Source: Enterobacteria phage GiZh. From it: a stretch of DNA of 64,000 nucleotides. The DNA is taken from sequence record NC_054903.1. One strand, written 5' to 3'. This document shows positions 2,325 to 58,525 of the stretch, piece after piece. Both the position numbers and the translations under genes were made by a program. Position 1 is the stretch's first letter. Each line of letters opens with the position of its first letter. The notes beneath the pieces are model-generated. The model saw only the letters and a list, made by a program, of their open reading frames with translations. It was not told the origin of the DNA and did not search any database.

Positions 2325-2525
2325 ATGGTACAAAAATTAATGGCACTTGTTAATGCCATCAAAGGTAATAAGAAACGTATAGCTTTTACTATTTCTGCTA
2401 TGGTAGGAATTTTACTCTGGAACTTTATTTTATCACCAATTGCAATTGCACATGGTGTTAATATTCCAGTAGTTACTCTTGATACATTTGTAGATTTAGC
2501 ATTTGCTTTAGTTGGGTTAATTTAA
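2325..2525 (+). CDS. hypothetical small hydrophobic protein (opposite strand)
   Basis: ATG 2325 preceded by AAGGAGG at optimal spacing; 66 aa, hydrophobic; only plus-strand ORF with a strong RBS in the early region. Confidence 0.3.
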   Translation: MVQKLMALVNAIKGNKKRIAFTISAMVGILLWNFILSPIAIAHGVNIPVVTLDTFVDLAFALVGLI

Positions 2526-3550
2526 ATCTTAGCATATTTAGATAACCGCATTTTAGCCATCAACCCCTGGGCAATATTATTTTTCATATATTCCATAATT
2601 TGTTCAGGGGTTGCACCTTCCTTTCTAATCATATCATTAACATCTTTTGATTTCCAGGGAGATTTATCCCAAAACATAACCCTTTCTCCTGCATCAACTA
2701 ATTTAGTCATTCGCTTAATAGTGTCAGGATGACGAGGTTCATTATCTAAGACCCACACACGCCTATCTTTAAATGGAACAACTTCTAGGTCTAATTGACC
2801 ACCCGTAATAGCTATACCATTTTCAATAAAAAGTGAATCTATAGGTCCTTCTAAAACATATACATCACCATCTTTAACTCGTTCGACTCCATATATTTTT
2901 GTTGCCTCAGGATAAGCTTTGATGGTGATATATTTTTGAGGAGCATCTTTCTTTAATGCACGTCCTTGAAAAGACTCAGCTTTTCCATTAGCATTATAAA
3001 TTGGAATAACAAGACGAGGCTCAGAAATTTCCTTTTTGTATGTTCCCGGTGCTATGCTATTAACTAATTTAGGCCATTCAGTTGTAAACCAAAGATATTT
3101 CCATTTATCCTTTGGAATACAACGAGCTTTTACATATTTTATAATTGCATGGTCTTCCGCCAGTTTATCTAATCGAACACATGACGGAAGAGATTTAATT
3201 ATTTTCTTCTCAGGTTGTTTAGGAAGTTCTTTAGGTTTTTCTACTGGACGACTTTTACCTTTTTCTTTTCTTATTTCAAAGATATACTCACGATATAAAT
3301 CAGGTTCAAACTCCTTTAAATATATTCCGATTGGTGCATGATAGTTACAGTTATAACAATGAATATTTCCTTCATTATTATCACCATAATACCATCCACG
3401 AGCTTTATTCTGGTCGGTTTTTGAATCTCCACAAACAGGACATCTAAACCGTAATTTAAAAGTTGAACTATTATTTACTTGTGTGAATTTAGGTAAATGA
3501 GCTAATGCACGGTATGCAAACTCATTATCAATCCAAGGTATTGATGACAT
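2522..3550 (-). CDS. 61: DNA primase gp61
   Basis: 342 aa; MSSIPWIDNEFAYRALAHL..., zinc ribbon CPVCG...CYNC, TOPRIM-like VLDNEPRH; ATG verified at 3550-3548. Confidence 0.9.
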   Translation of the reverse strand: MSSIPWIDNEFAYRALAHLPKFTQVNNSSTFKLRFRCPVCGDSKTDQNKARGWYYGDNNEGNIHCYNCNYHAPIGIYLKEFEPDLYREYIFEIRKEKGKSRPVEKPKELPKQPEKKIIKSLPSCVRLDKLAEDHAIIKYVKARCIPKDKWKYLWFTTEWPKLVNSIAPGTYKKEISEPRLVIPIYNANGKAESFQGRALKKDAPQKYITIKAYPEATKIYGVERVKDGDVYVLEGPIDSLFIENGIAITGGQLDLEVVPFKDRRVWVLDNEPRHPDTIKRMTKLVDAGERVMFWDKSPWKSKDVNDMIRKEGATPEQIMEYMKNNIAQGLMAKMRLSKYAKI

Positions 3551-3713
3551 TTTTACTCTTCTTTTTCTTTAGATTCCTCTTTTTTTTAGGAATCTGTTCA
3601 GGACCTTTATTTACTACAGCGCCTGATGTTGTTCCAGTAGAGATATTTTCAGGATTACCACCTGAATCTCCAGCTACCATATCTTCTTTAATAAATTCTT
3701 TATATGTTTTCAT
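3528..3713 (-). CDS. small basic protein with capsid-targeting-like N-terminus
   Basis: ATG 3713-3711 with AGAGGT RBS; N-terminus MKTYKEFIKE; C-terminal KKKRNLKKKKSKN; 23-nt out-of-frame overlap with gene 61 start. Confidence 0.5.
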   Translation of the reverse strand: MKTYKEFIKEDMVAGDSGGNPENISTGTTSGAVVNKGPEQIPKKKRNLKKKKSKNVINTLD

Positions 3714-49145: not shown

Positions 49146-49619
49146 TTATTTGAACGATTTAACGTACTGAATAGAACCTTTACTATTCACAAAGGCAATT
49201 TTACCATTTTTATTATACATGGTAGCAGTACGTTGATAACCATAAGTTTGTTTACCAGATTGATAACCAACTAATGCGAAATTATCTTCGCCCATTTTAT
49301 TCTGTTTAGCGCGAATGCGTTCATGACCATGTGCCATAAGAACCTTAGCATCACCAGTTGCAATGGATCGACGAGTTTTTTCATCTTCAACTGTATTAAC
49401 AAAGTCGTCAAATGAATCAAATTTAGCATGAGATTTATTATACAATTTTCCATCTACTGCATAATTATATCCCTGTACATCCATCTCAACTTCTGTACCA
49501 TCATCCAATACAGCAGTGATTTTTTGACCTTTTTTAAATTTCAAAAGATCAGTAAAAGATTCAGCAATAATTTGAGAATTAATAGCTGCTTCAGTGATAA
49601 ATTCTTGATATGTTTTCAT
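49146..49619 (-). CDS. internal protein candidate (capsid-targeting-like N-terminus)
   Basis: 157 aa; N-terminus MKTYQEFITEA matches the recalled CTS of T4 internal proteins. Confidence 0.6.
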   Translation of the reverse strand: MKTYQEFITEAAINSQIIAESFTDLLKFKKGQKITAVLDDGTEVEMDVQGYNYAVDGKLYNKSHAKFDSFDDFVNTVEDEKTRRSIATGDAKVLMAHGHERIRAKQNKMGEDNFALVGYQSGKQTYGYQRTATMYNKNGKIAFVNSKGSIQYVKSFK

Positions 49620-53975: not shown

Positions 53976-54239
53976 TTATTTCATATTATTGAAATATTCT
54001 TCAGCAATTTCATCATTATCATGATAAACTTTAGAAGACAGTTTAACATAACTTTCAGCAGTGAACATGTTAATCACAACCTTTACAGTATACCACTGAC
54101 CATCTTCATTACCCATTACTGCGTAAGTTTCAAACAACGGATGATCAGGACCGATAACTTTAATATCATTCACTGTACGACCGAAATCTTCTGAAACACA
54201 TTTCATAAAGAAGTTGAACAGCTCACCGTAATTATCCAT
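53976..54239 (-). CDS. hypothetical protein
   Basis: ATG 54239-54237 with GGAGAA RBS (MDNYGELFNFF...); track start 54302 lies upstream of the promoter -10. Confidence 0.5.
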   Translation of the reverse strand: MDNYGELFNFFMKCVSEDFGRTVNDIKVIGPDHPLFETYAVMGNEDGQWYTVKVVINMFTAESYVKLSSKVYHDNDEIAEEYFNNMK

Positions 54240-54282
54240 TTCATTCTCCAAGTTATTTTCTGTATCAGTAGTTGATAGTTGT

Positions 54283-54313
54283 ATAGTACCATGGAAGGAC
54301 AAGGATGTAAACC
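54283..54313 (-). promoter_or_regulatory. T4-type early promoter
   Basis: minus strand GTTTACA, 17 nt, TACTAT; 34-nt block 54261-54294 identical to 11231-11264. Confidence 0.55.
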
Positions 54314-54445
54314 GTTTTGTGAAAAAATTTTTAAAAAGTTTTGGGGAATTCTAGGGCAGGGAGGGGAAATCAAAGGATAGGATAATATATTATAAAGGGT
54401 AGAAACTAAATGATGTCTAGAGAGGCCTGGAAAGGCCTAGATACC

Positions 54446-54475
54446 AAAAAGCCCCAACCTTTCGGCTAGGGCTAA
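54446..54475 (-). terminator. intrinsic terminator downstream of internal-protein gene
   Basis: GC-rich hairpin with GAAA loop and UUUUU on minus strand; near-duplicate of 55001-55027. Confidence 0.6.
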
Positions 54476-54480
54476 GAATG

Positions 54481-54954
54481 TTATTTGATTTGTTTAGCAG
54501 ACCAAATGCGGTCTTTAATAATTTTTTGGATGTCTTCAACATATTCAAGAGAGTGAACATGTGGGTTATCTTTGAAACTATAAGCACGAGCTAGCTTTTG
54601 GCCTTCAGTTTTAATTACTAAAAGCTCTTTAAGGATAGCTTCATATTTGGAGATAATTCCTTTAACAATATTTTTCTCTTGTGCGACTTTAGGATCTGCT
54701 TTAGGAGCAGGTTTACCTGAAGCCTTTGCAAAAGCAGCTCCAGTAGCAACTAAACTTTTCCAGGCCATACTAACTGCATTTCCCGTAAATCCTTCCGCTT
54801 TCATATCGCGAGCAAATTGGAATCGTGACTCATCGGAAGCATCTTTATAGGAATATTTACCCGCGGCAATGGCAGCTTTTGCAACAGCTTGAATTTCAGT
54901 GCTAGATGCTTCATTTAACACCGCTTCATTTAAAAATTGAGCATATGATTTCAT
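54481..54954 (-). CDS. internal protein candidate (capsid-targeting-like N-terminus)
   Basis: 157 aa; N-terminus MKSYAQFLNEA; Ala/Lys-rich; own late promoter and terminators on both sides. Confidence 0.55.
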   Translation of the reverse strand: MKSYAQFLNEAVLNEASSTEIQAVAKAAIAAGKYSYKDASDESRFQFARDMKAEGFTGNAVSMAWKSLVATGAAFAKASGKPAPKADPKVAQEKNIVKGIISKYEAILKELLVIKTEGQKLARAYSFKDNPHVHSLEYVEDIQKIIKDRIWSAKQIK

Positions 54955-54990
54955 CTTATTTCCTGTTTTAATTTGTAGATTTAATATACT

Positions 54991-54998
54991 TATTTATA
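54991..54998 (-). promoter_or_regulatory. late promoter (TATAAATA)
   Basis: plus tatttata about 40 nt upstream of ATG at 54954. Confidence 0.5.
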
Positions 54999-55000
54999 CT

Positions 55001-55027
55001 AAAAAGCCCCAACCTTTCGGTCGGGGC
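55001..55027 (-). terminator. intrinsic terminator at the end of the tRNA/stable-RNA transcript
   Basis: GCCCCGACC-gaaa-GGUUGGGGC plus UUUUU on minus strand. Confidence 0.65.
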
Positions 55028-55030
55028 TAA

Positions 55031-55344
55031 GCCTTGCGGCAACCTTGTCGGGGTTCCACCTGCTAAGGCAAGTGTTTGTACGAAACGCCGGGATTCGAAC
55101 CCGGTTATTAAGTAGTTGACGCTACTCAATATTTTTAAAAGGCCATATCTCGACCATATCCGAACGTTCCGTCAAAAACGCTACTCGGCTTACGGCAAAG
55201 ATATTTCCTCGAATCGATAATTCGGTGCGCCGTTTCTGCTGTGATGTAAGGGGGCATTAACCGATCGTAAAGATTTGTTAATGCCAGTCCTTACCCAGGG
55301 AACATCAGTCCGACGACTTACCGGTAGCGACCCGGTTTCTTGTT
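55031..55344 (-). ncRNA. candidate small stable RNA region (T4 rnaC/rnaD-like) with tRNA-like 3' domain
   Basis: no credible ORF on either strand; minus-strand T-arm-like CCGGGTTCGAATCCCGG at 55088-55103 followed by acceptor-like strand; a complete cloverleaf could not be closed. Confidence 0.35.
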
Positions 55345-55420
55345 TGGTCGAGGCAGTAGGGATCGAACCTACGACCTAGGACTTAGAAGGTCCTTGCTCT
55401 TCCTTCTGAGCTATGCCTCG
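55345..55420 (-). tRNA. tRNA-Arg (anticodon UCU)
   Basis: cloverleaf folded by hand: acceptor CGAGGCA/TGCCTCG, anticodon loop CTTCTAA, T-arm GGTTCGATCC, 3' ACCA. Confidence 0.85.
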
Positions 55421-55424
55421 GATT

Positions 55425-55499
55425 TGGCGGACGTGATAGGATTCGAACCTATAACCAATCGCTTAACAGGCGATCGCTCTGCCATTGAGCTACACATCC
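55425..55499 (-). tRNA. tRNA-Asn (anticodon GUU)
   Basis: acceptor GGATGTG/CACGTCC, anticodon loop CTGTTAA, T-arm GGTTCGAATCC, 3' GCCA. Confidence 0.85.
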
Positions 55500-55503
55500 A
55501 AAT

Positions 55504-55590
55504 TGGTGGGGAGTGATGGAGTCGAACCACCCGAGTCGCAATGACAATGGATTTACAGTCCACACCGCTACCTCTACGGGATAACTCCCC
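55504..55590 (-). tRNA. tRNA-Tyr (anticodon GUA)
   Basis: acceptor GGGGAGT/ACTCCCC, anticodon loop CTGTAAA, long variable arm, T-arm GGTTCGACTCC, 3' ACCA. Confidence 0.85.
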
Positions 55591-55602
55591 TAATTCATAA
55601 TT

Positions 55603-55677
55603 TGGTGGCCCTGGGTGGAATTGAACCACCATCTGGCGATTATGAGTCGCTTGCTTGAACCTTCCAGCTACAGGGCC
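55603..55677 (-). tRNA. tRNA with anticodon CAU (Ile2 lysidine-type or Met)
   Basis: acceptor GGCCCTG/CAGGGCC, anticodon loop CTCATAA, T-arm GGTTCAATTCC, 3' ACCA. Confidence 0.8.
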
Positions 55678-55678
55678 T

Positions 55679-55754
55679 TGGTGCTGATTGACGGAATCGA
55701 ACCGCCGACCTTCTCATTACAAGTGAGTTGCTCTACCTACTGAGCTAAATCAGC
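55679..55754 (-). tRNA. tRNA-Thr (anticodon UGU)
   Basis: acceptor GCTGATT/AATCAGC, anticodon loop CTTGTAA, T-arm GGTTCGATTCC, 3' ACCA. Confidence 0.85.
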
Positions 55755-55759
55755 AAAAC

Positions 55760-55849
55760 TGGCGGAGGCGATAGGATTTGAACCTATGAGTCGCCGGAGC
55801 GACTGCCGGTTTTCAAGACCGGTGCATTAAACCACTCTGCCACGCCTCC
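55760..55849 (-). tRNA. tRNA-Ser (anticodon UGA)
   Basis: acceptor GGAGGCG/CGCCTCC, anticodon loop CTTGAAA, long variable arm, T-arm GGTTCAAATCC, 3' GCCA. Confidence 0.85.
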
Positions 55850-55851
55850 AG

Positions 55852-55925
55852 TCTCCATACAAGGATTTGAACCTTGGACCTCCTGATCCCAAATCAGGCG
55901 CTCTACCAAACTGAGCTACACGGAG
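55852..55925 (-). tRNA. tRNA-Pro (anticodon UGG)
   Basis: anticodon loop TTTGGGA, T-arm GGTTCAAATCC; CCA not encoded. Confidence 0.8.
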
Positions 55926-55935
55926 TAAATTAAAT

Positions 55936-56009
<74 letters not shown>

Positions 56010-56013
56010 AAAT

Positions 56014-56101
56014 TTGGTGCGAGAAGTGGGACTCGAACCCACAAGGAAATCATTCCGCAGCATTTTAAGTGCTGTACCTTTACCAATTTGACCATTCTCG
56101 C
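56014..56101 (-). tRNA. tRNA-Leu (anticodon UAA)
   Basis: acceptor GCGAGAA/TTCTCGC, anticodon loop CTTAAAA, long variable arm, T-arm GGTTCGAGTCC, 3' ACCA. Confidence 0.85.
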
Positions 56102-56102
56102 G

Positions 56103-56175
56103 CTGGGAATAAAGGACTCGAACCTTTGCATCCTGGAATCAAAATCCAGTGCCTTACCAACTTGGCTAATTCCCA
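56103..56175 (-). tRNA. tRNA-Gln (anticodon UUG)
   Basis: acceptor TGGGAAT/ATTCCCA, anticodon loop TTTTGAT, T-arm GGTTCGAGTCC; CCA not encoded. Confidence 0.85.
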
Positions 56176-56272: not shown

Positions 56273-56566
56273 TTACCATTTATGATAATACATATTTACG
56301 ATGCATTCAAGACCCAAAGGATTCTTGAAAATATCATATTCAAGAGGACCTTTTTCTGTTTCAATAAAGAAATCAAAATTTACTGTATTAAATTTACGGT
56401 CTTCCTTTACTAATTTAACTTGTGAAGATGAACGGTCAATGTAAACCTTTTCAACTTCAAAATATGTTAAAATGCCATAATCATCAATCAAGGCTTTAGC
56501 CGCGTCTTGATCATATTTATATCCATTTTCAATGGACGATACTTTCGCATAAAGAATCATTATCAA
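56273..56566 (-). CDS. hypothetical protein
   Basis: 97-aa ORF just upstream of the tRNA cluster. Confidence 0.45.
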   Translation of the reverse strand: MIMILYAKVSSIENGYKYDQDAAKALIDDYGILTYFEVEKVYIDRSSSQVKLVKEDRKFNTVNFDFFIETEKGPLEYDIFKNPLGLECIVNMYYHKW

Positions 56567-56943
56567 CCTTCATCAACAATAGTATGCGTATTGGCATTTA
56601 CAATTTGCCACCAATCAAAGCGATTGGAACCATAATCTGGTTTGTTTTCATTTTCTTTGATAATGTCACGGAGTTCATCTTCAGTGGCGGCTTTCGCGAT
56701 TAAATCAGCATATCCACCACGAGGATAATAATTATCACCTGCAAAAAGTAAAAAGTTTGGTTTAATGTTATTGAACTCTTCAAGAGTAATAACCTTTCCT
56801 GACGGTTGAACAATCTCTACATATTTATATCCCAATTTTTGAGCAGCATCTACTGCTTCAAGCAAAGTATCATGAGCCCATCCAATTTGACAACCTGGCT
56901 TTTCAGATGGATTAGCCTGATAATCCGCATACACTTTGTACAT
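56563..56943 (-). CDS. hypothetical protein
   Basis: ATG verified at 56943-56941 (MYKVYADYQANPSEKPG...); track extension overlaps upstream ORF. Confidence 0.5.
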   Translation of the reverse strand: MYKVYADYQANPSEKPGCQIGWAHDTLLEAVDAAQKLGYKYVEIVQPSGKVITLEEFNNIKPNFLLFAGDNYYPRGGYADLIAKAATEDELRDIIKENENKPDYGSNRFDWWQIVNANTHTIVDEG

Positions 56944-57130: not shown

Positions 57131-57158
57131 TTTATTCTCCTCGGTAGTTGATAGGGTA

Positions 57159-57189
57159 ATAGTATCACTACCCTATCTAAAAGTAAACT
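57159..57189 (-). promoter_or_regulatory. T4-type early promoter
   Basis: minus strand GTTTACT, 17 nt, TACTAT. Confidence 0.5.
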
Positions 57190-57422
57190 TATTTTTTACG
57201 AAAAATTGATTTATTTTCTGCTGCCCATTTTTCAATAACTGCAGCAGGACCAGTAACAACAATTTTATCACCGTAATCTTCTGCGGCGAGTTGACCGAAA
57301 TTATCTAATGCATCACGAAGAACTCCATGAGGCATTTCACCCATTTTATCTTTCTTGCCGGTGTAAATAAACTCAACTTTTACATCAGAAGATTCAGCGA
57401 TAAACTCTTTGAAAGTTTTCAT
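57189..57422 (-). CDS. internal protein I-like (capsid-targeting N-terminus)
   Basis: ATG 57422-57420 gives MKTFKEFIAESSDVKVEF... (77 aa); track start 57488 is TTG inside the promoter -35; position upstream of 57B/57A as T4 ipI. Confidence 0.6.
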   Translation of the reverse strand: MKTFKEFIAESSDVKVEFIYTGKKDKMGEMPHGVLRDALDNFGQLAAEDYGDKIVVTGPAAVIEKWAAENKSIFRKK

Positions 57423-57456
57423 TTTGATTTCCATTTGGTTTTGTTTTGATAGAGTA

Positions 57457-57487
57457 ATAGTATCACTACTAAAACCCTGTGTAAACA
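57457..57487 (-). promoter_or_regulatory. T4-type early promoter
   Basis: minus strand GTTTACA, about 18 nt, TACTAT. Confidence 0.5.
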
Positions 57488-57498
57488 ACTTTGTGAAA

Positions 57499-57756
57499 TT
57501 ATTTTAAATCTTCTAATCGTTTCTTCATCTTAGAACCATTTTTAGCAATTTCTCCTGCATCTGAGCATAATGCTAAAAGCGCTTTAACTTTAGTTTGGTC
57601 TCCTTTAAAAGATGAAGGATCGACTGCAGCAGCAAGTTCTTTAATACGAGAGAAAAGACGCTCAGCTTCAGCTAAAGCCATTCCAAGCTTTACTTCCATA
57701 CCGTGGGAAGATTCGGTGATAGTAGTTTTTGTAGCAAACTCTTTGAAAGTTTTCAT
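57499..57756 (-). CDS. internal protein candidate (capsid-targeting-like N-terminus)
   Basis: 85 aa; N-terminus MKTFKEFATKT; ATG verified; own early promoter. Confidence 0.55.
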   Translation of the reverse strand: MKTFKEFATKTTITESSHGMEVKLGMALAEAERLFSRIKELAAAVDPSSFKGDQTKVKALLALCSDAGEIAKNGSKMKKRLEDLK

Positions 57757-57786
57757 TTTATTTTCCTAATTAATTTTGATGAGATA

Positions 57787-57817
57787 ATAGTATCACTACC
57801 TCATCAACGTGTAAACA
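57787..57817 (-). promoter_or_regulatory. T4-type early promoter
   Basis: minus strand GTTTACA, 17 nt, TACTAT. Confidence 0.5.
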
Positions 57818-57828
57818 ACTTTGTGAAA

Positions 57829-58525
<697 letters not shown>

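What the first reader, a model, noticed from the sequence alone, without database searches (positions are those of the whole stretch)
54446..55030. Internal-protein cassette bracketed by two near-identical terminators
The 157-aa CTS-bearing gene (MKSYAQFLNEA) carries its own late promoter and is flanked on both sides by almost the same 30-nt terminator hairpin (aaaaagccccaacctttcgg...gggctaa at 54446-54475 and 55001-55030). This self-contained promoter-gene-terminator unit next to the tRNA cluster looks like an exchangeable cassette, consistent with the known hypervariability of IP loci among T-even phages.
Basis: seen in the sequence. Interest (0 to 1): 0.55.

Follow-up and report, generated by a model that had tools for sequence, protein, structure and literature searches.

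The report
Hairpin-flanked internal-protein-like gene cassette
In this T4-like phage, a late gene for a probable capsid-packaged, injected protein sits between two copies of one terminator hairpin; related phages gain, lose or stack such genes exactly at those hairpins, at a site that is empty in T4, T2 and T6.

Summary
Two 36-nt copies (54441-54476 and 54996-55031, 89% identical) each fold on the minus strand into a 10-bp GC-rich stem, a GAAA loop and a U-tract. They flank a TATAAATA late promoter and a 157-aa ORF.

The window is a Tequatrovirus. The upstream hairpin is the conserved terminator behind the tRNA/rnaD/rnaC unit. The downstream hairpin is a second copy that occurs only when the 157-aa gene is present.

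Relatives show four states between e.8 and rnaC, with every junction inside a hairpin and its T-tract:
- empty, one hairpin: T4, T2, T6, RB9, PST
- 157-aa gene, two hairpins: about 275 records
- a diverged 187-aa paralog alone: about 37 records
- both genes, three hairpins: about 128 records

Other genera put other cargo behind the same hairpin plus late promoter.

The protein has a T4 IPII/IPIII-type capsid-targeting leader (MKSYAQFLNE|A) and a basic Lys/Ala-rich composition. It has no known fold or domain and is annotated "hypothetical" in every record examined.

The best reading is a recombination-bounded late cassette encoding an unrecognised internal protein, at a third IP-like locus. This resembles the known PeSL-type modular shuffling but is not a PeSL. 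Packaging and function are inferred, not shown.

The parts
55224..55343 (-). rnaD (species 2 RNA) homolog. With rnaC it forms the last part of the tRNA transcription unit.
   Evidence: blastn to the annotated T4 rnaD, 88% over 118 nt, aligned to 55224-55340; the end is extended to 55343 to abut tRNA-Arg.
55079..55217 (-). rnaC (species 1 RNA) homolog.
   Evidence: 99.3% identical over 139 nt to the annotated T4 rnaC. No Rfam family exists for it.
54996..55031 (-). Repeat copy B. Stem-loop at 55005-55028 plus U-tract at 55001-55004. This is the intrinsic terminator of the tRNA/rnaD/rnaC unit and the upstream boundary of the cassette.
   Evidence: -24.9 kcal/mol. Present at this position in every relative examined, including empty-site T4, and in 723 phage records.
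54991..54998 (-). T4-type late promoter TATAAATA, 2 nt after the U-tract of copy B.
   Evidence: The same junction GGGGCTTTTTAGTATAAATA occurs in Jiaodavirus. A near-identical hairpin + TATAAATA occurs twice in Dhakavirus and once in Mosigvirus LF82-5.
54959..54964 (-). Shine-Dalgarno-like AGGAAA, 4-5 nt before the ATG.
   Evidence: Read from the sequence.
54481..54954 (-). 157-aa ORF of family phrog_2280. Residues 1-10 (or 1-15) form a capsid-targeting-type leader, MKSYAQFLNE|AVLNE|A. A small helical N-domain, a Lys/Pro/Ala linker and a helical C-domain follow.
   Evidence: Found in 510 phage records; every row of the 60-row spread sample (and every other record examined) annotates it 'hypothetical protein' or carries no annotation.
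54441..54476 (-). Repeat copy A. Stem-loop at 54450-54473 plus U-tract at 54446-54449. This is the terminator of the 157-aa gene and the downstream boundary of the cassette.
   Evidence: -18.5 kcal/mol. Present only in genomes that carry the 157-aa gene.
54243..54440 (-). Constant left flank 'L' (GGTATCTAGGCC... in RNA sense) with the early-promoter-like site of e.8 (54283-54311). It is the same in all four states of the locus.
53976..54242 (-). e.8 homolog, the downstream neighbour outside the cassette.
   Evidence: phrog_2678; T4 annotation.

Best explanation
The interval is a modular late-gene cassette sitting on the terminator of the tRNA/rnaD/rnaC unit.

Shown by sequence and comparison: hairpin B ends the tRNA/stable-RNA transcripts. 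Two nucleotides after its U-tract, a TATAAATA late promoter starts a short mRNA for the 157-aa protein. Hairpin A, a paralogous copy of B, ends that mRNA before the e.8 early promoter.

Because A and B are direct repeats, homologous recombination between them removes gene plus one hairpin and leaves L-hairpin-R, the T4/T2/T6 state. The reverse reaction, or an unequal crossover between phages carrying different alleles, inserts or stacks cassettes. For example, crossing the 187-aa and 157-aa states at the hairpin yields both the two-gene and the empty state. The population-level result is N genes with N+1 hairpins.

Inferred, not shown: the product is an internal protein. Its leader would target it to the prohead core. 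The gp21 prohead protease would cut after Glu10 or Glu15 (L-x-E motif). The basic mature protein would be packed with the DNA and injected. There it most likely neutralises a host defence, as T4 Ip1, Ip2 and Ip3 do for distinct GmrSD type IV restriction enzymes.
For: Anatomy.

Hairpin constraint: among 12 distinct variants 95.4% of cells pair, 6 of 9 pairs vary, and there is one compensatory C-G to G-C change.

Polymorphism exactly at the hairpins:
- T4 is empty.
- The 157-aa gene alone, the 187-aa gene alone and both genes occur in different relatives.
- Flank words are constant: L = TAGATACC, R = AAGCCT.

Census in 50,697 phage records:
- The 157-aa gene is in 510 records and the 187-aa gene in 165.
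- The two-gene junction is in 128 and the L-hairpin-157 junction in 275.
- The hairpin is found at 1,181 places in 723 records, mostly 1-2 per record. The roughly 458 extra copies match the number of 157-aa genes.

Empty sites lie on different flank haplotypes. One is a Mosigvirus carrying the Mosigvirus-specific hairpin variant. Others have nearest neighbours that carry the gene.

Other cargo sits behind the same hairpin + late promoter: a DUF7338 membrane ORF and a 205-aa allele in Dhakavirus, with the composite duplicated, and a 208-aa allele in LF82-5.

Internal-protein likeness:
- The leader matches T4 IPII/IPIII (MKTYQEFIAE|A). The protein has pI 9.46, 13% Lys and 17% Ala, against 9.3-9.5, 13-15% and 14-16% for IPII/IPIII.
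- The leader is conserved across the whole family while the mature part diverges.

Precedents:
- Repeated terminator/promoter cassettes mediate indels and mini-circles in T4-type phages (PMC2839356, PMC4122927).
- T4 deletions end at GGGC/GCCC motifs (Mosig 1998, cited in PMC2839356).
- Ip1-3 inhibit distinct GmrSD enzymes (PMC12373910).
Against: No virion proteomics, transcript mapping or genetics was available, so packaging, cleavage, late expression and termination are all predictions.

One leader-like N-terminus also occurs on a 61-aa ORF in an early region (3528-3713). The motif alone therefore does not prove packaging.

The TATAAATA count in the window is at chance level.

Current shuffling of the four states could proceed through ordinary crossovers in the conserved flanks (e.8, rnaC) rather than in the 36-nt repeats. 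L and R trees are discordant, which shows frequent recombination but does not place the crossovers.

The two copies within a genome are not significantly more alike than copies between genomes (permutation p = 0.10, n = 11).

In Jiaodavirus and LF82-5 the homolog has an unrelated downstream terminator.

No fold, domain or defence-related similarity was found.
Confidence: 0.7

Rival explanations
1. The two hairpins are simply two working terminators that share ancestry from one old duplication. The present presence/absence pattern is spread only by ordinary homologous recombination in the conserved neighbours (e.8, rnaC) during mixed infections. The hairpins are landmarks, not crossover sites.
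For: T-even genomes are highly mosaic. L- and R-flank trees disagree with each other. There is no significant concerted evolution of the two copies. Homologs in Jiaodavirus and LF82-5 do without a duplicated hairpin.
Against: Each of the four states had to be created at least once, and every junction lies within GGGCTTTTT of a hairpin. Empty sites occur on Tequatrovirus and Mosigvirus backgrounds, each with its own hairpin variant. Hairpin variants turn up at position A, middle or B in different genomes. Dhakavirus independently shows the composite duplicated around different cargo.
Confidence: 0.2
2. The 157-aa protein is a late cytoplasmic or otherwise non-packaged protein. Its N-terminus resembles the capsid-targeting leader only through shared ancestry or chance, so the unit is not an internal-protein cassette.
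For: It is annotated as an internal protein in none of the records examined. It lies outside the two described IP loci (PMC2839356). A leader-like start also occurs on an early-region ORF. No structural similarity to any known IP was found.
Against: The leader F-x-E-F-L-x-E is kept across the whole, otherwise fast-diverging, family. It is followed by the L-x-E|A cleavage context. Composition matches IPII/IPIII. The gene is driven by a late promoter and insulated from early transcription. Known IPs share nothing but the leader (PMC12373910).
Confidence: 0.2
3. The repeat is the footprint of a mobile element or homing event: a target-site duplication, or co-conversion driven by one of the homing endonucleases of the tRNA region.
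For: Homing endonuclease genes (segB-like) and a 116-aa ORF once annotated 'endonuclease' sit within 1-2 kb in many relatives.
Against: The cassette encodes no nuclease or transposase. The 'duplicated target' is a complete functional terminator whose substitutions preserve pairing. The window and many relatives carrying the gene lack the nearby endonuclease ORFs.
Confidence: 0.04
4. Chance or convergent similarity of two unrelated terminators.
For: Terminators share a generic architecture.
Against: The copies are 32/36 identical, including the loop and the unpaired flanks. Shuffles give 0.00 expected matches. The copy number tracks the gene across hundreds of genomes.
Confidence: 0.01

Closest known systems
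PeSLs (promoter-early stem-loops) of T4-type phages (Arbiol et al. 2010, PMC2839356; Comeau et al. 2014, PMC4122927)
   Same: A short repeated regulatory element containing a terminator hairpin brackets small non-essential genes. Indels between close relatives begin and end in the repeats. The terminators insulate the module, so insertion or deletion does not disturb neighbours. Recombination between tandem copies is the proposed mechanism.
   Different: The repeated unit here carries no sigma-70-like early promoter. The promoter attached to copy B is the late TATAAATA, and copy A has none. In Tequatrovirus the repeat is confined to one locus at 1-2 copies per genome, not dispersed through the hyperplastic regions. 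The Arbiol 2010 text contains no occurrence of 'late promoter'.
The two hypervariable internal-protein loci of T-even phages (ipI locus; ipII/ipIII locus; Repoila et al. 1994, as summarised in PMC2839356 and PMC12373910)
   Same: Small basic proteins share only the N-terminal capsid-targeting leader, vary between close relatives, and are flanked by repeated promoter/stem-loop elements. This window carries such elements at its own ipI locus (57146-57844).
   Different: The position differs: it lies between e.8 and rnaC. PMC2839356 states that IP genes are absent elsewhere in T-even genomes. The boundary element also differs: a strong GC-rich terminator with a late promoter, against weak AT-rich stem-loops on early promoters. 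The encoded family (phrog_2280) is not annotated as an IP.
T4 IPII / IPIII
   Same: The leader is MKTYQEFIAE|A in IPII/IPIII and MKSYAQFLNE|A here. Size (100-193 aa), pI of about 9.4 and Lys/Ala richness are similar.
   Different: There is no detectable sequence or fold similarity beyond the leader. Virion presence and target are unknown.
Integron gene cassettes
   Same: Promoter-proximal stacking of single-gene modules separated by a repeated recombination element. Circles are a possible intermediate.
   Different: There is no integrase and no attC/attI. Each cassette has its own promoter and terminator. Recombination would be general homologous or microhomology recombination by the phage machinery. 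This is an analogy only.

Membership tests
T4-type internal proteins (IPs) | N-terminal capsid-targeting sequence of about 10 residues (MKT[YF]xEFxxE type) | tested here: met
   MKSYAQFLNEA against T4 IPII/IPIII MKTYQEFIAEA. It is 8/11 identical to the leader of the 187-aa paralog. The leader is conserved in all family members.
T4-type internal proteins (IPs) | Prohead-protease (gp21) cleavage context L/I-x-E| at the end of the leader | tested here: met
   L8-N9-E10|A11 and again L13-N14-E15|A16. E15 is invariant in alignment A1. The consensus is taken from established T4 knowledge. Cleavage itself was not tested.
T4-type internal proteins (IPs) | Small, basic, Lys-rich protein | tested here: met
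   157 aa, pI 9.46, Lys 13.4%, Ala 16.6%. IPII is 9.33 / 15% / 16% and IPIII is 9.54 / 13.5% / 14%.
T4-type internal proteins (IPs) | Expressed late, with the head proteins | tested here: inconclusive
   A perfect TATAAATA lies 36 nt upstream, directly behind a terminator, and is conserved in other genera. No transcript data exist, and the motif count in the window is at chance level.
T4-type internal proteins (IPs) | Physically present in the mature head and injected with the DNA | not testable with these tools
   This needs virion mass spectrometry or injection assays. No proteomic report was found.
T4-type internal proteins (IPs) | Encoded in one of the two described IP loci | tested here: not met
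   The gene lies between e.8 and rnaC. The described loci are 57B-trna.4 and e-denV (PMC2839356).
PeSL regulatory cassettes | Stem-loop that can terminate transcription | tested here: met
   (prediction and covariation only).
PeSL regulatory cassettes | Sigma-70-like early promoter with an AT-rich upstream region inside the repeated unit | tested here: not met
   The repeat is 36 nt of hairpin plus T-tract. Copy B is followed by the late TATAAATA, and copy A by GGTATCTAGG. The nearest early-type promoter is about 135 nt further on.
PeSL regulatory cassettes | Many copies dispersed through hyperplastic regions | tested here: not met
   There are two copies in the 64-kb window. The 60 sampled records hold 1-2 places each (one holds 3), and 723 records hold 1,181 places in all; every copy examined lies at this locus.
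PeSL regulatory cassettes | Indels or replacements between close relatives bounded by the repeats | tested here: met
   Four states with all junctions in the hairpin.
PeSL regulatory cassettes | Formation of excised mini-circles | not testable with these tools
   This requires inverse PCR on infected cells.
Rho-independent terminator | GC-rich stem, short loop, 3' U-tract on the transcribed strand | tested here: met
   10-bp stems with 6-7 G-C pairs, a GAAA loop and a 4-5 U tract. Both are annotated as putative terminators in G4507 and PhAPEC2.

The most novel reading that the evidence does not exclude
T-even phages have a third, so far unrecognised internal-protein locus directly behind rnaC. 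It is empty in the laboratory phages T4, T2 and T6 but filled in most sequenced Tequatroviruses.

Its genes (family phrog_2280, alleles of 157, 187 and 205 aa) would encode packaged, injected anti-defence proteins. They would be shuffled, deleted and stacked by recombination at a duplicated terminator + late-promoter element. That element would be a late-gene counterpart of PeSLs, working like an integrase-free cassette array.
Probability: 0.45. Interest if true: 0.65.

Novelty: new variant of a known kind. Interest (0 to 1): 0.5.

Why it matters
Internal proteins are the only phage proteins already present in the cell when the DNA arrives. In 2025 all three T4 IPs were shown to be specific inhibitors of different GmrSD type IV restriction enzymes (PMC12373910).

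A leader-bearing family present in about 500 sequenced phages, yet missing from T4, T2 and T6 and annotated only as 'hypothetical', is a ready set of candidate injected inhibitors. These could be tested against orphan defence systems.

The locus also offers a clean natural series: 0, 1, 1' and 2 genes with exact junctions. This series could be used to test how T4-type phages shuffle accessory genes. Repoila et al. (1994) left that question without a mechanism, and the PeSL work addressed it only for early genes.

For phage engineering, the hairpin-bounded slot is a naturally insulated, late-expressed insertion site.

Tried and rejected
Function searches on the 157-aa protein all came back empty:
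- Pfam, NCBIfam and PADLOC gave no hit.
- PHROGs gave only phrog_2280, 'unknown function'.
- A profile search of PDB sequences gave nothing below E = 2.
- The AlphaFold2 model is all-alpha with mean pLDDT 76.7.
- Foldseek against PDB found no match at E <= 0.001. Foldseek against BFVD found only the protein's own family.

A profile search of 1.84 billion representative proteins found only 13 clusters. Those whose source was checked come from T4-like phages.

Concerted evolution of the two hairpin copies was tested and was not significant (p = 0.10).

Rfam has no model for rnaC/rnaD or for the hairpins.

Literature searches for ORF names, family ids or virion proteomics of this protein found nothing. 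Supplements of PMC4122927 are not held, and those of PMC12373910 contain no matching leader. Repoila 1994 (PMC395341) is not held, so its content is cited only through later papers.

Phage LF82-5 was reported with 3 hairpin 'places', so I looked for a dispersed copy. The first 50 kb hold none and the rest was not fetched.

The IMG/VR scan with e.8 gave only 10 loci. The census therefore rests on junction-specific BLAST counts rather than on a full per-genome parse.

Full report
**What is in the sequence**

All genes in this part of the window run on the minus strand. In transcript order they are:
- ten tRNA genes (56175-55345)
- homologs of the T4 stable RNAs rnaD (55224-55343) and rnaC (55079-55217, 99.3% identical to T4)
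- hairpin B (stem-loop 55005-55028, U-tract 55001-55004)
- a perfect late-promoter octamer TATAAATA, two nucleotides later (54998-54991)
- a Shine-Dalgarno-like AGGAAA
- a 157-codon ORF (54954-54481)
- hairpin A, seven nucleotides after the stop codon (54473-54450, U-tract 54449-54446)
- a constant spacer with an early-type promoter (54311-54283)
- the e.8 homolog (54242-53976)

The two hairpins belong to a 36-nt direct repeat (54441-54476 and 54996-55031) that is 89% identical, with a spacing of 555 nt. No other copy exists in the 64 kb, and shuffles give 0.00 expected matches. Both are called terminator-like, with 10 pairs, a 4-nt loop and a T-run. They fold at -18.5 and -24.9 kcal/mol. The three differences are transitions in the 5' arm that keep pairing through wobble or A-U pairs.

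**Where the window comes from**

The interval is 99.9% identical to Escherichia phage JLBYU24 and 95-98% identical to hundreds of Tequatrovirus genomes. Gene 57B/Acb1 and e, nudE and e.2-e.8 homologs flank the region as in T4.

**The comparative test**

In T4, e.8 and rnaC are separated by a 284-bp gene-free gap. That gap contains one hairpin with the same left flank (..TAGATACC) and right flank (AAGCCT/AACCGT..) as the outer flanks of this window. I extracted the interval from 21 loci and found four states:
- L-P-R, empty: T4, T2, RB9, PST, Sf24, KIT06 and Mosigvirus phi25-307
- L-P-[157-aa gene + late promoter]-P-R: this window, ESH35, G4507 and two IMG/VR contigs
- L-Q-[187-aa gene]-P-R: RB14 and RB69
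- L-Q-[187]-P-[157]-P-R: Phaginator, ECO78, SCS4, three IMG/VR contigs and Mosigvirus PhAPEC2

P is the hairpin of this finding. Q is a different hairpin (GCCCTATCATTTAGATAGGG) that shares only GGGCTTTTT with P. Every junction lies inside a hairpin plus its T-tract, so N genes always come with N+1 hairpins.

Junction-specific searches of 50,697 phage records give the following counts:
- 510 records with the 157-aa gene
- 165 records with the 187-aa gene
- 128 records with the two-gene junction
- 275 records with L joined directly to the 157-aa cassette

These counts imply about 37 records with the 187-aa gene alone and about 60 empty sites. The hairpin itself occurs at 1,181 places in 723 records, mostly one or two per record and, wherever I looked, always at this locus. 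The surplus of about 458 copies matches the number of 157-aa genes. T2, T6, RB3 and RB6 show the single-copy pattern with the L flank. All three classical T-even phages therefore lack the cassette, which may be why the locus has gone unnoticed.

**Direction and recurrence**

Homologs of the gene sit directly behind the tRNA/rnaC terminator in other genera as well:
- Mosigvirus PhAPEC2 has both genes in the same order, and both P copies carry the Mosigvirus-specific arm variant.
- Mosigvirus LF82-5 has a 208-aa allele.
- Dhakavirus MN04 has a 205-aa allele.
- Jiaodavirus phiKp_22 has a 177-aa allele, preceded by the identical junction GGGGCTTTTTAGTATAAATA.

A gene of this family behind that terminator is therefore probably ancestral, and the empty state derived.

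The empty sites are not one lineage. In UPGMA clustering of the flanks, phi25-307 groups with gene-bearing Mosigviruses and keeps their hairpin variant. The nearest neighbours of Sf24 and KIT06 carry the gene. T4, T2 and RB9 cluster on the left flank but not on the right. This pattern fits repeated hairpin-to-hairpin deletion, or frequent recombination, or both.

In Dhakavirus the whole composite (GGCCCTTCCGAAAGGTTGGGCC + T5-6 + GTATAAATA) is duplicated. The copies bracket an unrelated cargo, a DUF7338 membrane-type ORF, which is followed by the 205-aa gene. Gaprivervirus has the same DUF7338 ORF behind the hairpin. The slot thus accepts different late-promoter-driven cargo.

**The hairpin is under structural constraint**

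Twelve distinct variants keep 95.4% of cells paired. Six of nine pairs vary, nearly all by wobble-compatible transitions. One pair is switched C-G to G-C in Dhakavirus. Slid controls pair in only 26-60% of cells. A test for concerted evolution of the two copies within genomes was not significant (p = 0.10, n = 11).

**The protein**

Its leader, MKSYAQFLNE|A, mirrors the T4 IPII/IPIII capsid-targeting sequence MKTYQEFIAE|A. The L-x-E|A context used by the prohead protease occurs at residues 8-10 and again at 13-15. Composition (pI 9.46, 13% Lys, 17% Ala) matches IPII/IPIII.

The 187-aa neighbour starts MKTYAEFLTE|A. The Dhakavirus 205-aa protein links the two forms: 28% identity to the 157-aa protein (E = 7e-8) and 26% to the 188-aa protein (E = 7e-5). 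All three fall in phrog_2280, 'unknown function'. The two genes of the stacked state are therefore diverged paralogs.

The family shares one architecture: a leader, a small helical domain with an invariant AGKYSY...AWKS motif, a Lys/Pro/Ala linker and a variable helical C-domain.

The family is tiny, with 13 clusters among 1.84 billion representatives, and members with a known source come from T4-like phages. It has no Pfam, NCBIfam, PADLOC, PDB-sequence or fold match. In every record examined it is annotated 'hypothetical protein' or left unannotated.

**Mechanism proposed**

Shown by sequence and comparison:
- B terminates the tRNA/stable-RNA unit.
- The late promoter abutting B drives the ORF.
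- A terminates the ORF's transcript and insulates e.8.
- A and B are direct repeats that coincide with the indel boundaries.

Inferred:
- Recombination between the repeats deletes the cassette.
- An unequal crossover between a 157-type and a 187-type phage at the shared P hairpin would yield the stacked and the empty states in one step.
- Circles carrying one gene and one hairpin could reintegrate, as was shown for PeSL mini-circles.
- The product is packaged through its leader, trimmed by gp21, injected, and acts against a host defence, as T4 Ip1-3 do against distinct GmrSD enzymes (PMC12373910).

**Comparison with what is known**

PeSLs are repeated stem-loop + early-promoter cassettes that bound indels and form mini-circles in T4-type phages (PMC2839356, PMC4122927). 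This element works like a PeSL but fails two defining features: it has no early promoter in the repeat, and it is not dispersed.

[quoted passage not shown] PMC12373910 likewise speaks of two loci. This window also carries those loci in typical form:
- two leader-bearing ORFs bracketed by 71-nt early-promoter/stem-loop repeats at 57146-57844
- a DUF7412 internal-virion-protein gene after denV

The e.8-rnaC site would be a third IP-type locus with a different kind of boundary element. Deletion endpoints at GGGC/GCCC motifs in T4 (Mosig 1998, cited in PMC2839356) fit the GGGCTTTTT junctions seen here.

**Verdict**

- The upstream hairpin is the conserved rnaC terminator rather than cassette-specific.
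- The duplication is specific to some lineages.
- The locus is not one of the described IP loci.
- Internal-protein status is inferred.

The finding is a new variant of a known kind of system. It has a concrete, testable lead: an unannotated family of probable injected proteins. Packaging, cleavage, promoter and terminator activity, and the recombination events themselves remain unverified.

Noticed in passing
window 57146-57844 (minus strand): Three copies of a 71-nt repeat (61-83% identical) each hold an early-type promoter (GTTTACA-N17-TACTAT) whose -10 lies within a stem-loop. They bracket two leader-bearing ORFs: 57499-57756 (IpV-like, phrog_3499) and 57189-57425 (IpVI-like, phrog_8111). 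These are the PeSL-like elements of the classical ipI locus.
   Followed up: partly
window 49146-49619 (minus strand): A 157-aa leader-bearing protein (MKTYQEFITEA; DUF7412, phrog_3155 'internal virion protein') lies after denV. T4's ipIII and ipII between e and denV are absent, so the IP set of this phage differs from T4 at all loci.
   Followed up: partly
protein P0014 (metagenomic, 94 aa); corresponds to window ~56563-56800 fused to 54481-54570: This protein joins the trna.3-like N-terminus to the last ~30 residues of the 157-aa protein. It implies a natural deletion that removed the whole tRNA/rnaD/rnaC region and most of the cassette.
   Followed up: no
L001 2941-3291; also RB69ORF150c (L016 2007-2351) and T2_136 (L025): Many relatives carry a 116-aa ORF (phrog_3355, once annotated 'endonuclease') inserted between rnaD and tRNA-Arg. 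It is absent from this window and from T4.
   Followed up: partly
window 3528-3713 (minus strand): A 61-aa ORF just upstream of the primase gene (gp61 homolog, 2522-3550) starts MKTYKEFIKED, a capsid-targeting-like leader. It sits in an early-gene region (phrog_1823, unknown function).
   Followed up: partly
L029 (Dhakavirus MN04) 1845-2560; L028 (Gaprivervirus RZ) 1892-2500: The hairpin + T-tract + GTATAAATA composite is duplicated around a 184-aa DUF7338 membrane-type ORF (MKLLKYLSWILL...). This cargo is unrelated to the internal-protein-like family.
   Followed up: partly
window 55345-56175: The tRNA cluster has ten genes, adding Asn, Tyr and Met(CAT) relative to T4's eight. It lacks the segB homing-endonuclease gene that interrupts the cluster in T4 and several relatives.
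   Followed up: no
window 57829-58284 (minus strand): The gene 57B homolog is a clear Acb1 anti-CBASS protein (PF23474, E = 2.6e-60). It lies directly upstream of the ipI-type locus.
   Followed up: no
PV660449.1 (Mosigvirus LF82-5): The hairpin query hit 3 places in this genome. Only one lies behind rnaC and none is in the first 50 kb. The other two were not located, so dispersal of the element in some Mosigviruses is not excluded.
   Followed up: partly
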